Positions 10,001-12,703 of a stretch of 64,000 nt of DNA are shown piece after piece. Source of the stretch: Escherichia coli (GTDB lineage Bacteria > Pseudomonadota > Gammaproteobacteria > Enterobacterales > Enterobacteriaceae); assembly GCF_045037415.1 (NCBI RefSeq), contig NZ_CP173438.1, one strand, 5' to 3'. The position numbers were made by a program. Within the stretch, counting starts at the first letter, position 1, and each line of letters starts with the position of its first letter.

Positions 10001-12703
10001 GCGATGTTTAAATCAGGCAAAAATGGGCCACGCGTAAAAGGTAGTTATTGATATCAAAGGCCCATGGGGATCGGCTGTGGGCCTGTGTTAATTAGTGGTT
10101 ATTCGCTGCCAGATCGGCTTCGCTTAGCTGAGTGGCCGCGAGCACCTGATCACGATCAATGCCCTGTTCCAGCATGCGCAAAGCAATTTTAATGGCTTGT
10201 TCATGCATGCCTTCCTGCAAACCTTCTAATTTACCTTCTTGCCAGCCTTCAATCTTACCCTCCTGCCAGCCAATTTGATGTCCTTCCTGCCGTAGCCGTT
10301 CAGCAATAGTCATCAATCTCTCCTTTTAATGACAGTTCGGAATATCAGCATCAGTGAGTTGGGTTGCCGCCAGCACAATCTCACGTTCAAAGCCCTGCTC
10401 CAGCATGCGCAAGGCAATTTTAATGGCTTGCTCATGCATGCCTTCCTGCAAACCTTCTAATTTACCTTTCTGCAAACCCTCCAATTTACCTTGCTGCAAA
10501 CCTTCTAATTTACCTTCTTGCCAGCCTTCAATTTTACCTTCTTGCCAGCCAATTTGATGTCCTTCCTGCCGTAGCCGTTCAGCAATAGTCATTAATCTCT
10601 CCTTTTGTAGTGGTGAACGTTCGGCAATCTCCTGAATAAAGCGGGTGAAACGGGAGGTATCGCCGCATTGCAGCAGATAATTAAACAGTGTTTGTAGCTG
10701 GCTGTCATTAGTGAAGTCTCTAACCAAAAGCGTGGTGATCCTGTCGACCATACCGATTAAATCGCGGTCGCGAATATGCTTTTGAATCAGTTCCAGCAGA
10801 GCTATACGCCGATGTTGCATGATCTCATCGTCAGGTACGATGGTGATATCCACCAACGGAAAAGCTTCGGTGTACAACTGCCGGGCAAGTTGCGGATCGT
10901 CAAACTCATCCAGCCAGTTGAGTGAGTACGGGTAGGGCGAGGCTTCGCCATGATAAAACAGCAATGGCACCACCAGCGGAACTCTGTCATAGCCTTTATC
11001 CAGGTGACGCTGCATGGCGGCAGTGGCATAGCGCATTAGCCGAAAAGCCATATTCTTTTCTGCAGAGCTTTGATGTTCAATCACGCAGTAGATATAGCCG
11101 TCACCCTCGCTGGTTTCCACGGACCACAAAACATCCGAGTAGTAAGCGCGTAAACTTTTTTCAATAAAACTGGTGGGTTCCAGGCGTAAGGTTTGCAGGT
11201 TGCAAAGCTTGCGCAGCGGCTCTGGTAGATGTATTTCCAGAAAATCCCGTGCGGTTTCGGGTGTGAACATAAAGGTTTTAAACACCGCATCATGCGGGGA
11301 GGAGGTTGTTGATTCGGTCATGGTTGTCCGTCACCTGATATTTATGATGACGCGACATTACGGTTATCCCAGGCCTTTGATATCTGCCAGTTTCAGCCTT
11401 TGCGAGACGTTTTCAGAGGAATTTTCACTGCGTTGCAACGCATACATTGGGCACGGAATCGTGTACGCAAAAATGCCCGGTAACAACATGCTTACCGGGC
11501 ATCAGAAAGGAGTTTAAGCCAACGCCTGTGCCAGCAGCGTAATCGGATGTTCGCAGCGAAGACTTGTGGACATCTCAATCTGCCATTTGCAGGTTTCGCA
11601 GTCGGTGACCACCAGATCTGCGCCGCTCTCTTCTATCTGGCGGAACAGTGGTGCGCCGATGGCTTGTGAAGTGGGGTAGTTCTCTTTTTTGAAACCGTAA
11701 GTTCCCGCAATACCGCAGCACTGGGAATCCAGCACCGTTAACTCAAGCCCCGGGATTTTACGCAACAGCTCCAGGGTGTAGAGCGTCCAGCCCATTTTTT
11801 CCATATGGCACGGAGTGTGATAAACCACTTTCAGCGGCAGCGGTTTCAGCGGTAACGTTTTGCCTTCGTCCAGCTTGCGCCACAGCCAGCGGGTCGCCAG
11901 TTCGATATGATCGCGCAAGCCTTTGTTGTCGACATTCAGCACTTCTGGGTATTCGTCGCGCAGGGCAAATGTACACGTTGAGGAGGTGGCAATCACCGGA
12001 ATGCCTTTTACTCCCACAGCTTCGCGGATCGACTCTACATTCGTAATTGCCTGTTTGCGTGCTTTATCGGTAAAACCGTTGGCGATCAGCGGTACGCCGC
12101 AGCATTTTTCTTTACTGAGCAGTTGTACGCCGGTATCCATCGCGTTGAGCACTTTAATTAAATCTTTGCCTAGTTGCGGATGGTTGTAGTTAACGAAGCA
12201 GCCGTGAAAGAAAGCGACCTGGTCTTTATACTGCGCTTGCTGAGCCGCCACGCTGCGATACCAGCGACGGAACGTGCCGAAGGAGTATTTCGGTAGCGTG
12301 CGGCGATGATCGATTTTTAACGCCGCATCAAGCAGCTGACGCACCGGTTTCAGCGAGGTAGCGGTGTTGACGATGGGTGCGAACGGCGTGGATACGCTAC
12401 CCATCAGGTCGGTATGACTCAACACAAAATTACGCAGCGACGGGCGCGTGGTGTCATATTTCGCCCGCGCGCGCTGGATAATATCGCCAATCTTCACATC
12501 GGACGGGCAGGCGACTTCACAACGTTTGCAGTTGATGCAATATTTCAGCGCCTCGTCATACAGTGCGCCATCTTTCAAACGCAGACGCTCGCCATCCGGC
12601 CCGGCTTGTTTTGGCCCCGGATAACCCGGATTCACCCGGCTCACCGGGCAGGCGGTGGTGCAGACGGTGCACTTAATGCAGTTTTCGAAGCTGGTGTCGT
12701 TCA

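What the first reader, a model, noticed from the sequence alone, without database searches (positions are those of the whole stretch)
10092..11321. rpnE(yfaD)/ypaA: nuclease gene with an internal SD-driven small ORF, a duplicated stand-alone copy and variable 24-bp tandem repeats
Three things are visible directly. (1) Inside rpnE there is an in-frame ATG (10592..10590) preceded at ideal spacing by AAAAGGAGAG, which would give an 88-aa C-terminal protein. (2) Immediately downstream, ypaA repeats this module with the same SD and start, and its SD overlaps the rpnE stop codon. (3) The shared region holds 24-bp tandem repeats, 5 copies in rpnE and 3 in ypaA, so the array is recombinationally plastic. 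I recall a report that Rpn nucleases are toxic and are inhibited by small proteins translated from internal starts, acting as a phage-defence toxin/antitoxin pair; I cannot verify that here. Under that model ypaA would be a second, free-standing antitoxin copy.
Basis: partly seen in the sequence, partly recalled or inferred. Interest (0 to 1): 0.7.

Follow-up and report, generated by a model that had tools for sequence, protein, structure and literature searches.

The report
Known RpnE nuclease with nested antitoxin
This is the E. coli rpnE(yfaD)-ypaA locus, a DNA-cutting enzyme gene with a small protein made from an internal start, a duplicated stand-alone copy and a variable repeat tract; all of this was published in 2019-2023, so the finding is correct but not new.

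Summary
rpnE (11321..10326, minus strand, 331 aa) has an in-frame ATG at 10592..10590 behind AAAAGGAGAG, giving an 88-aa protein. ypaA (10313..10092, 73 aa) repeats this module, and its ribosome-binding site (SD) overlaps the rpnE stop codon. Both modules carry tandem repeats whose true unit is 12 nt / 4 aa (Gly-x-x-x): 11 units in rpnE, 7 in ypaA.

It is already described. Meydan 2019 mapped the internal start. Zhong 2023 (PNAS) named RpnE_L, RpnE_S and YpaA=RpnE_Ss, detected all three proteins in K-12, reported the strain-variable repeats, and proposed a gene-within-gene toxin-antitoxin phage defence.

What I add:
- In 106 loci the repeat counts vary (RpnE 3-11 units, YpaA 3-9).
- The two counts are uncoupled: 13 distinct combinations, only one equal, which is what random pairing gives.
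- About 40% of complete E. coli genomes carry one fused gene with a YpaA-type tail.

Caveats:
- No function has been shown for RpnE itself. K-12 rpnE was inactive in the 2017 assays.
- For RpnC, a one-unit mismatch abolished neutralisation. YpaA (7 units) is therefore doubtful as a cognate antitoxin for this strain's RpnE (11 units).

Verdict: already known, low interest.

The parts
10326..11321 (-). rpnE (yfaD) full-length CDS, RpnE_L, 331 aa including the TAA at 10328..10326
   Evidence: ORF list. 100% identical to annotated rpnE of E. coli 4/1-1 and others. NCBIfam NF007418, 716 bits.
10695..11300 (-). N-terminal YhgA-like PD-(D/E)XK nuclease domain (Pfam PF04754 Transposase_31, residues 8-209)
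   Evidence: Pfam E=7.1e-88. The RpnA functional residues D11, D63, E82, Q84, R94 and the PDDEI motif are all present at the same positions.
10680..10708 (-). Candidate internal sigma-70 promoter, found by eye: ATGACA (10708..10703), 17-nt spacer, TTTAAT (10685..10680). Unverified.
   Evidence: Read from the sequence. The consensus scan reported no promoter in 9950-11550. Zhong 2023 cites dRNA-seq start sites inside all rpn genes, but the position was not available to me.
10597..10606 (-). Internal Shine-Dalgarno AAAAGGAGAG for rpnE_S
   Evidence: Present at the rpnE_S position in all of the first 77 related loci scanned; 66 of them carry the exact SD+ATG string twice, 11 (single-gene or disrupted loci) once.
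10326..10592 (-). rpnE_S: nested in-frame small gene, 88 aa, same frame and same stop as rpnE_L
   Evidence: The start context is identical to K-12 (20 nt upstream), where the start was mapped and the protein detected.
10431..10562 (-). Gx3 (4-aa / 12-nt) repeat tract of RpnE: 11 units, [44 protein letters not shown]
   Evidence: TRF core 10441-10545, period 24, 4.4 copies. Unit parsing. Lies in one predicted helix, residues 3-65 of RpnE_S.
10318..10327 (-). Shine-Dalgarno of ypaA, overlapping the rpnE stop codon (10328..10326)
10092..10313 (-). ypaA (= rpnE_Ss): stand-alone duplicate of the S module, 73 aa from ATG 10313..10311. A TTG one codon upstream (10316) is the mechanical ORF start.
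   Evidence: The exact 73-aa protein is found in 12,446 index blocks, always downstream of rpnE in the places shown, and carries the PF27070 HTH_Rpn_C hit.
10200..10283 (-). Gx3 repeat tract of YpaA: 7 units, [28 protein letters not shown]
   Evidence: TRF core 10210-10271, 2.6 copies. Unit parsing.
10058..10084 (.). G+C-rich palindromic hairpin between the convergent genes ypaA and yfaU; a possible bidirectional terminator
   Evidence: Terminator-like scan, 10-bp stem. The count does not exceed shuffles, so this is weak evidence.

Best explanation
This is the chromosomal rpnE(yfaD)-ypaA locus of E. coli, a member of the published Rpn 'gene-within-a-gene' family.

**Products.** One reading frame gives two proteins.
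- RpnE_L (331 aa) has an N-terminal PD-(D/E)XK nuclease domain and a C-terminal helical domain.
- RpnE_S (88 aa) is that C-terminal domain alone, started at the internal SD+ATG.

**Mechanism, inferred by homology with RpnA, RpnB and RpnC.**
- The free S domain pairs with the identical domain of L through the long first helix and holds the nuclease inactive.
- The Gx3 repeats lengthen that helix and set which S fits which L.
- Because S and L share the same DNA, they are always length-matched.

**ypaA.**
- It is a tandem duplicate of the S module, starting exactly at the SD.
- It has no copy of the upstream sequence, so it is probably transcribed with rpnE/rpnE_S.
- It is probably translated from its own SD, possibly coupled to termination at the rpnE stop codon.
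- Its repeat count (7) and its last ~22 residues differ from RpnE_S. It is therefore most likely a non-matched or weakly matched partner, not a simple spare antitoxin.
- It also acts as a recombination partner. Crossing-over between the two modules yields the single fused rpnE alleles seen in many strains.

**Status of each step.**
- Shown here: the anatomy, the domains, the intact catalytic residues, the repeat plasticity and the uncoupled counts.
- Shown in the literature for K-12: use of the internal start and presence of all three proteins.
- Inferred: RpnE toxicity, neutralisation by S, and any phage-defence role.
For: - **Anatomy:**
- **Identity:** 5420 of 5426 complete E. coli genomes match at this chromosomal site. 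In the loci fetched it lies between glpC and yfaU.
- **Nuclease domain:** PF04754, E=7.1e-88. RpnA functional residues and the PDDEI motif are conserved.
- **S domain:** PF27070 HTH_Rpn_C is recorded on identical proteins. The only PDB hit is RpnA_S, 7TH0, with the same first 11 residues. AF2 puts the repeats in one continuous helix, residues 3-65, mean pLDDT 76.
- **Literature:** internal start mapped. RpnE_L, RpnE_S and YpaA detected; S blocks L for RpnA and RpnB; repeat matching is needed for RpnC; the fusion alleles are noted.
- **Plasticity:** RpnE has 3-11 units and YpaA 3-9 units in 106 loci.
- **Conservation:** the SD+ATG is kept in every module scanned. ypaA was intact in all two-gene loci parsed.
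- **Fused alleles:** at least three different crossover points, giving 300, 308 and 320 aa.
Against: - No experiment addresses RpnE toxicity or its neutralisation.
- Overexpressed K-12 rpnE (a construct with the internal start intact) gave no recombination, toxicity or SOS signal, unlike RpnA-D.
- Phage defence was shown only for the plasmid RpnP2. PADLOC 2023 has no matching model.
- The consensus scan found no internal promoter.
- The repeat-matching rule comes from one paralogue (RpnC) tested under overexpression. It may not apply to RpnE/YpaA.
Confidence: 0.8

Rival explanations
1. YpaA is a fully functional second antitoxin for the neighbouring RpnE_L. It adds dosage or back-up if RpnE_S expression fails.
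For: - About 95% DNA identity with rpnE_S over the SD, the N-terminus and the post-repeat segment.
- Same SD and start.
- Protein detected in K-12.
- ORF intact in all two-gene loci examined.
Against: - Repeat counts differ in this window (11 vs 7) and in 12 of 13 distinct combinations. The one equal case is what random pairing predicts.
- In RpnC a one-unit mismatch abolished neutralisation.
- The last ~60 nt differ at 24-28 positions, and each tail type is conserved across strains.
- About 40% of genomes lack a separate ypaA.
Confidence: 0.25
2. RpnE is a functionally decayed paralogue. The nuclease is inactive, and RpnE_S and YpaA are leftovers or have an unrelated role, for example as small helix-turn-helix DNA-binding regulators.
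For: - K-12 rpnE was inactive in all three assays of Kingston 2017.
- Occasional disrupted alleles: IS2 insertion in L021, nonsense mutation in L030, frameshifts in L065/L066.
- Weak HTH-like Pfam hits on YpaA. The Pfam name is HTH_Rpn_C.
Against: - All RpnA functional residues are retained.
- Full-length ORFs are intact in nearly all sampled loci.
- RpnE_L protein is detected in K-12.
- The 2017 construct still made RpnE_S, and the host still had ypaA. Inactivity is expected under the antitoxin model too.
Confidence: 0.15
3. rpnE is a transposase of an ISNCY-type insertion sequence, as RefSeq/NCBIfam names it.
For: NCBIfam NF007418 'ISNCY family transposase'. PGAP product names. Pfam name Transposase_31.
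Against: - It is at the same chromosomal site in 5420 of 5426 genomes, with no plasmid copies.
- No flanking terminal inverted repeats. The only inverted pair lies inside the CDS at 75% complementarity.
- Zhong 2023 reports no terminal inverted repeats, no target-site duplications and variable ends.
- The fold is PD-(D/E)XK nuclease, and RpnA is a non-specific endonuclease.
Confidence: 0.02
4. The repeat-number variation is neutral slippage or unequal crossing-over in a tolerant helix, with no role in specificity or an arms race.
For: - Counts in RpnE and YpaA drift independently.
- All changes are in-frame multiples of 12 nt, as expected for any tolerated coding repeat.
Against: - RpnC experiments show the count changes partner specificity.
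- The same kind of variation recurs in distant phyla.
- No array was frameshifted in the intact alleles sampled.
Confidence: 0.2

Closest known systems
E. coli K-12 RpnE_L / RpnE_S / YpaA (RpnE_Ss) (Zhong et al. 2023, PMC10400941; Meydan et al. 2019, bioRxiv 10.1101/520783)
   Same: It is the same locus with the same neighbours. The SD+ATG at the internal start is identical. The arrangement is the same, including the ypaA SD overlapping the rpnE stop codon.
   Different: An allelic difference only. K-12 has 3 Gx3 units in RpnE (299 aa) and 4 in YpaA (61 aa); this window has 11 (331 aa) and 7 (73 aa). There is an A-to-G change at -1 of the ypaA ATG.
RpnA_L/RpnA_S, RpnB and RpnC toxin-antitoxin pairs; RpnA_S crystal structure 7TH0
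   Same: - YhgA-like PD-(D/E)XK domain plus a C-terminal three-helix domain made separately from an internal start.
- The first 11 residues of S are identical ([11 protein letters not shown]).
- 4-aa repeats in helix 1.
   Different: Toxicity, S-blocks-L and in vitro inhibition were shown for those paralogues, not for RpnE. RpnA_S of K-12 has no repeat expansion.
rpnC-rpnC_Ss (downstream stand-alone S copy in some E. coli strains)
   Same: A tandem stand-alone duplicate of the S module downstream of its parent rpn gene. It arose independently, according to Zhong 2023.
   Different: It is a different paralogue and is not in this window. I did not examine its repeat matching.
GxxxG repeat helices of FliH/YscL and the deca-GX3 motifs of Yae1/Lto1
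   Same: - Runs of Gly every fourth residue in a long helix used for protein-protein pairing.
- The RpnE tract gives weak profile hits to FliH models and to Yae1_N.
- That FliH repeat length varies between species is from my own knowledge (Trost and Moore 2009); I did not check it here.
   Different: There is no homology outside the repeat, so this is an analogy of motif only. The hits fall far below the family cut-offs.
EcoR124I / EcoR124II TAEL repeats
   Same: The copy number of a 4-aa helical repeat sets specificity. Zhong 2023 cites this as a parallel.
   Different: There the repeat sets the spacing of DNA half-sites in a type I specificity subunit, not toxin-antitoxin pairing.

Membership tests
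Rpn gene-within-gene toxin-antitoxin (Rpn_L/Rpn_S) | N-terminal YhgA-like PD-(D/E)XK nuclease domain with catalytic residues | tested here: met
   PF04754, E=7.1e-88, residues 8-209. D11, D63, E82, Q84, R94 and PDDEI are present.
Rpn gene-within-gene toxin-antitoxin (Rpn_L/Rpn_S) | In-frame internal start with its own SD, giving the C-terminal domain as a separate small protein | tested here: met
   The sequence feature is present and conserved in the 77 loci scanned. Actual initiation and the protein were shown for the identical K-12 context only in the literature.
Rpn gene-within-gene toxin-antitoxin (Rpn_L/Rpn_S) | C-terminal helical Rpn_S domain (PF27070 HTH_Rpn_C; three-helix bundle of RpnA_S) | tested here: met
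   - A precomputed PF27070 hit is recorded on the identical RpnE and YpaA proteins.
- The only PDB hit is RpnA_S, 7TH0 (E=0.25; N-terminus identical).
- The AF2 model shows helices at 3-65 and 69-77.
- The Pfam copy used by profile_search did not report this family.
Rpn gene-within-gene toxin-antitoxin (Rpn_L/Rpn_S) | 4-aa repeats in helix 1 whose number varies between strains of one species | tested here: met
   RpnE has 3, 4, 5, 6, 8, 9 or 11 units; YpaA has 3, 4, 5, 7 or 9 units. Locus length varies in 12-nt multiples among the complete genomes listed.
Rpn gene-within-gene toxin-antitoxin (Rpn_L/Rpn_S) | Rpn_L is toxic (DNA damage) and the cognate Rpn_S neutralises it | not testable with these tools
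   There are no data for RpnE. K-12 rpnE with its internal start intact was inactive. Zhong 2023 tested RpnA, RpnB and RpnC only.
Anti-phage defence system | Protection against phage infection | not testable with these tools
   This was shown only for the plasmid RpnP2. PADLOC-DB 2023 has no matching model; the only hit is a weak one to a candidate 'putative invertase'.
Cognate stand-alone antitoxin (YpaA for RpnE_L) | Repeat count matched to, or co-varying with, that of the toxin's C-terminal domain | tested here: not met
   - This window has 11 vs 7 units.
- Of 13 distinct combinations, one is equal (L081, 5/5).
- Random pairing, run on 15 parsed combinations (two of which are parsing artefacts), gave at least one equal pair in about 76% of shuffles, most often one.
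- The sample is not random and is not corrected for phylogeny.
Insertion sequence / ISNCY transposase (database name) | Terminal inverted repeats, target-site duplication, several or mobile copies | tested here: not met
   It occupies one fixed chromosomal site in 5420 of 5426 genomes, with none on plasmids. There are no flanking inverted repeats. Zhong 2023 reaches the same conclusion.

The most novel reading that the evidence does not exclude
YpaA is not a spare antitoxin. It is a length- and tail-divergent S module whose repeat count evolves independently of RpnE. In most strains it cannot pair with its neighbour's nuclease. Instead it serves as a stored alternative C-terminal cassette: recombination with the in-gene module re-tips RpnE_L and RpnE_S together, giving a new specificity and producing the fused alleles. 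Alternatively, it modulates the system by pairing with something other than RpnE_L. The single-gene form with the YpaA-type tail, seen in two cryptic Escherichia clades, may be the ancestral state. In that case 'ypaA' keeps the original tail and the nuclease carries the derived one.
Probability: 0.2. Interest if true: 0.45.

Novelty: already known. Interest (0 to 1): 0.2.

Why it matters
The locus illustrates an established idea: a toxin carries its own antitoxin inside the same reading frame, and a hypervariable helical repeat sets their specificity. This window adds nothing to that concept. It is simply a long-repeat allele (11 and 7 units, against 3 and 4 in K-12).

Two points may be useful to specialists.
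- RpnE is the one E. coli paralogue with a natural, always-present stand-alone S copy whose repeat count is uncoupled from the nuclease. That makes it a ready-made natural test of the repeat-matching rule.
- RefSeq still names rpnE a transposase and often marks ypaA as a pseudogene fragment. This hides the system from genome-mining pipelines.

Tried and rejected
- **'Counts are never equal.'** After 78 loci I found no locus where RpnE_S and YpaA had the same repeat count, and I considered selection against matching. Four further look-ups from the RpnE side found L081 with 5/5. A shuffle test shows that one equal combination is what chance gives. I dropped the idea and report the counts as uncoupled.
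- **Ongoing gene conversion between the two modules.** Within-strain S-vs-Ss differences in the conserved 5' part (3.2 of 70 nt) equal the between-strain S-vs-Ss differences (3.0 of 70 nt). There is no signal. A few rows in that script were mis-parsed, so it is only indicative.
- **Internal promoter by consensus scan.** None was found in 9950-11550. I found only a by-eye candidate at 10708..10680.
- **PADLOC defence models.** No meaningful hit.
- **Species-wide scan for the YpaA-type C-terminus.** An exact degenerate pattern over 100,044 species genomes found only two cryptic-clade Escherichia genomes. That is too few to settle whether the single-gene or the two-gene form is ancestral. The pattern was strict and evidently missed even the E. 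coli representative.
- **Later literature on RpnE/YpaA.** The held library has nothing beyond the 2023 paper and its commentary.
- **Supplementary data of Zhong 2023.** The files are not held, so I could not check whether they tabulated S/Ss repeat counts.
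Full report
**1. What is in the sequence**

On the minus strand the window reads glpC, then a 192-nt spacer, then an ORF at 11321..10326 (331 aa), a small ORF ending at 10092, and the convergent yfaU.

- The 331-aa ORF contains an in-frame ATG at 10592..10590 (codon 244).
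- This ATG is preceded by AAAAGGAGAG (10606..10597), six bases from the AAGGAG core. It would give an 88-aa protein.
- The string AAAAGGAGAGATTRATG occurs exactly twice in 64 kb, with none expected by chance. So does the coding start ATGACTATTGCTGAACGGCTACG.
- The second copy starts ypaA (ATG 10313..10311, 73 aa). Its SD (10327..10318) overlaps the rpnE TAA (10328..10326).
- Aligning the two modules shows that homology begins exactly at the SD. The roughly 190 aligned bases from the SD to the end of the post-repeat segment are about 95% identical apart from one 48-nt indel. The last ~66 nt are only about 57% identical.
- Tandem Repeats Finder reports period 24, with 4.4 copies at 10441-10545 and 2.6 copies at 10210-10271.
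- At the protein level the unit is four residues, G-x-x-x. There are 11 units in RpnE ([44 protein letters not shown]) and 7 in YpaA.

The refinement is that the elementary unit is 12 nt, not 24.

**2. Identity**

- The 1551-nt region is 100% identical to several E. coli chromosomes. It matches 5420 of 5426 complete E. coli genomes, always on the chromosome. In the loci fetched it lies between glpC and yfaU.
- RefSeq calls the long gene rpnE.
- Residues 8-209 match Pfam PF04754, the YhgA-like Transposase_31 family, at E=7.1e-88.
- The residues whose mutation inactivates or alters RpnA (D11, D63, E82, Q84, R94) and the PDDEI motif are all present at the same positions.
- Identical RpnE and YpaA proteins in public assemblies carry the precomputed hit PF27070 HTH_Rpn_C.
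- The only solved structure that RpnE_S hits is RpnA_S (7TH0). The two share the first 11 residues.
- A single-sequence AlphaFold2 model of RpnE_S places the whole repeat tract in one continuous helix, residues 3-65 (mean pLDDT 76). This agrees with the published view that repeats lengthen helix 1.

**3. It is published**

- Meydan et al. 2019 (bioRxiv 10.1101/520783) found retapamulin peaks at in-frame internal starts in all five rpn genes. They noted that the rpnE internal product is nearly identical to YpaA, and they reported synonymous-site conservation at the yfaD internal start.
- Zhong et al. 2023 (PMC10400941) named the products Rpn_L and Rpn_S and called ypaA rpnE_Ss. They:
  - detected RpnE_L, RpnE_S and YpaA by chromosomal SPA tagging in MG1655;
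  - cited internal transcription start sites;
  - showed that S blocks L for RpnA and RpnB (growth, SOS, and cleavage in vitro for RpnA);
  - solved the RpnA_S structure;
  - described strain-variable 4-aa repeats for all E. coli Rpn_S proteins, including the Ss proteins;
  - showed for RpnC that S and L must carry the same number of repeats;
  - showed phage protection by the plasmid RpnP2;
  - noted that rpn_Ss can be lost by deletion or by fusion to the rpn N-terminal region.
- The start context here is identical to K-12 for rpnE_S. For ypaA it differs by one base, at -1. The K-12 expression evidence therefore transfers by sequence identity.

**4. What I could add**

*Plasticity*
- In 60 evenly spaced rows of the 5420 matching genomes, the locus length differs in multiples of 12 nt.
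- In 106 loci fetched, RpnE carries 3, 4, 5, 6, 8, 9 or 11 Gx3 units (299-331 aa). YpaA carries 3, 4, 5, 7 or 9 units (57-81 aa).
- Both single-unit and double-unit steps occur.

*Architecture*
- About 40% of the spread rows (24 of 60) have a single gene and no separate ypaA.
- These alleles (300, 308 and 320 aa) join the RpnE N-terminal region to a YpaA-type tail.
- They do so at different crossover points. L012, for example, keeps an RpnE-type array, while L011 has a YpaA-type array.
- Two cryptic-clade Escherichia genomes also have a single 308-aa gene with the YpaA-type tail. The single form may therefore be ancestral as well as recurrently derived. I cannot decide this here.

*Coupling*
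- The repeat counts of RpnE and YpaA are uncoupled.
- The 13 distinct (RpnE, YpaA) combinations are 11/9, 11/7, 9/7, 9/5, 8/5, 8/4, 8/3, 6/4, 5/7, 5/5, 4/7, 4/5 and 3/4.
- Only L081 (5/5) is equal.
- A shuffle of the pairings, run on 15 parsed combinations (two of which are parsing artefacts), gave no equal pair in 24% of shuffles and exactly one in 39%.
- There is thus neither matching nor avoidance.
- The sample was drawn by protein variant and is not corrected for phylogeny.

*Tails and ORF integrity*
- The two tail types are each conserved across strains (0.7-1.4 differences per 60 nt). They differ from one another at 24-28 of 60 positions.
- ypaA was intact in every two-gene locus parsed, including loci where the gene caller skipped it.

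**5. Mechanism and its limits**

The best reading follows the published model.
- RpnE_S is the nuclease's own C-terminal domain made separately. It pairs with that domain in RpnE_L through the Gx3 helix and keeps the nuclease off.
- S and L are obligatorily length-matched because they are the same DNA.

This is inference for RpnE.
- No toxicity, neutralisation or defence data exist for it.
- Overexpressed K-12 rpnE was inactive in recombination, viability and SOS assays.
- That construct still made RpnE_S, however, and the host had ypaA. The result fits both the antitoxin model and the decayed-paralogue rival.
- The intact catalytic residues and the mostly intact ORFs across strains favour an active enzyme.

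For ypaA:
- The duplication begins at the SD, so ypaA carries no copy of whatever promoter lies upstream in rpnE. It is presumably transcribed with rpnE/rpnE_S.
- It is presumably translated from its own SD, possibly coupled to termination 12 nt upstream.
- If the RpnC rule holds, a 7-unit YpaA should pair poorly with an 11-unit RpnE_L. The lack of any co-variation across strains argues against an obligate cognate relationship.
- I prefer 'divergent, mostly non-matched S module that also acts as a recombination partner', but this is untested.

**6. Other readings rejected**

- *Transposase.* This is the database name (NCBIfam NF007418, 'ISNCY family transposase'). The gene sits at one fixed site in essentially all genomes. 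It has no flanking inverted repeats. The literature reports no defined ends.
- *FliH and Yae1_N hits.* These weak profile hits reflect the Gx3 repeat only. They are useful as a structural analogy (glycine-every-fourth helices used for pairing), not as homology.

**7. Verdict**

The finding is a rediscovery of a described system in a long-repeat allele.
- Novelty: already known.
- Interest: low (0.2).
- The only open point is what YpaA does, given that its repeat count is uncoupled from the nuclease's. The most novel reading (a specificity cassette or non-cognate modulator) gets probability about 0.2.

Noticed in passing
window 10092-11321; loci L001-L020: RefSeq/PGAP names rpnE 'ISNCY family transposase'. 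In most records it marks ypaA as a pseudogene fragment ('hypothetical protein; incomplete; missing N-terminus') starting right after the rpnE stop. Yet the ORF has its own SD+ATG and the protein was detected in K-12. A few records annotate ypaA as a proper CDS (L005, L020) or as 'Rpn/YhgA-type helix-turn-helix domain-containing protein'.
   Followed up: partly
window 10431-10562 and 10200-10283: The repeat tract has Gly at every fourth residue (Gx3). It gives weak hits to FliH models and to Pfam Yae1_N, two families known for GxxxG / deca-GX3 helices used in protein pairing. This is a motif analogy only.
   Followed up: no
L011-L016, L078, L079: Single fused rpnE alleles (300, 308 and 320 aa) carry a YpaA-type C-terminus in O157:H7, O104:H4 and many other strains, about 40% of spread rows. 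Two cryptic-clade Escherichia species genomes have the same architecture. Crossover points differ between alleles.
   Followed up: partly
L021 (NZ_CP157104.1), L030, L065/L066: Some rpnE alleles are disrupted.
- L021: an IS2 insertion after codon ~211.
- L030: a nonsense codon at residue 9 of the S module, truncating both L and S, with ypaA intact.
- L065/L066: frameshifted copies at the two ends of one contig of GCA_016586755.1. These look like an assembly overlap with uncorrected errors.

   Followed up: no
window 10311-10316: In this strain the base before the ypaA ATG is G (ATTGATG). This creates a TTG one codon upstream, which the mechanical ORF list takes as the start (74 aa). K-12 has A at that position.
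   Followed up: no
window 10058-10084: A 10-bp G+C-rich palindrome lies in the 40-nt gap between the convergent ypaA and yfaU genes. It is a possible bidirectional terminator, but the T-run is weak and the hit count is not above shuffles.
   Followed up: no
L015, L016 and hits H27-H41: In many single-gene (fused rpnE) strains, such as O104:H4, the neighbouring yfaU is annotated as an incomplete pseudogene ('aldolase/citrate lyase family protein', missing N-terminus). The rhamnonate-aldolase gene next door therefore also varies between lineages.
   Followed up: no
L081 (GCA_022493315.1, CP028745.1): This is the only sampled locus in which RpnE_S and YpaA have the same number of Gx3 units (5 and 5). 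The two still differ in their tails. It is a natural control strain for testing whether length matching lets YpaA neutralise RpnE_L.
   Followed up: partly
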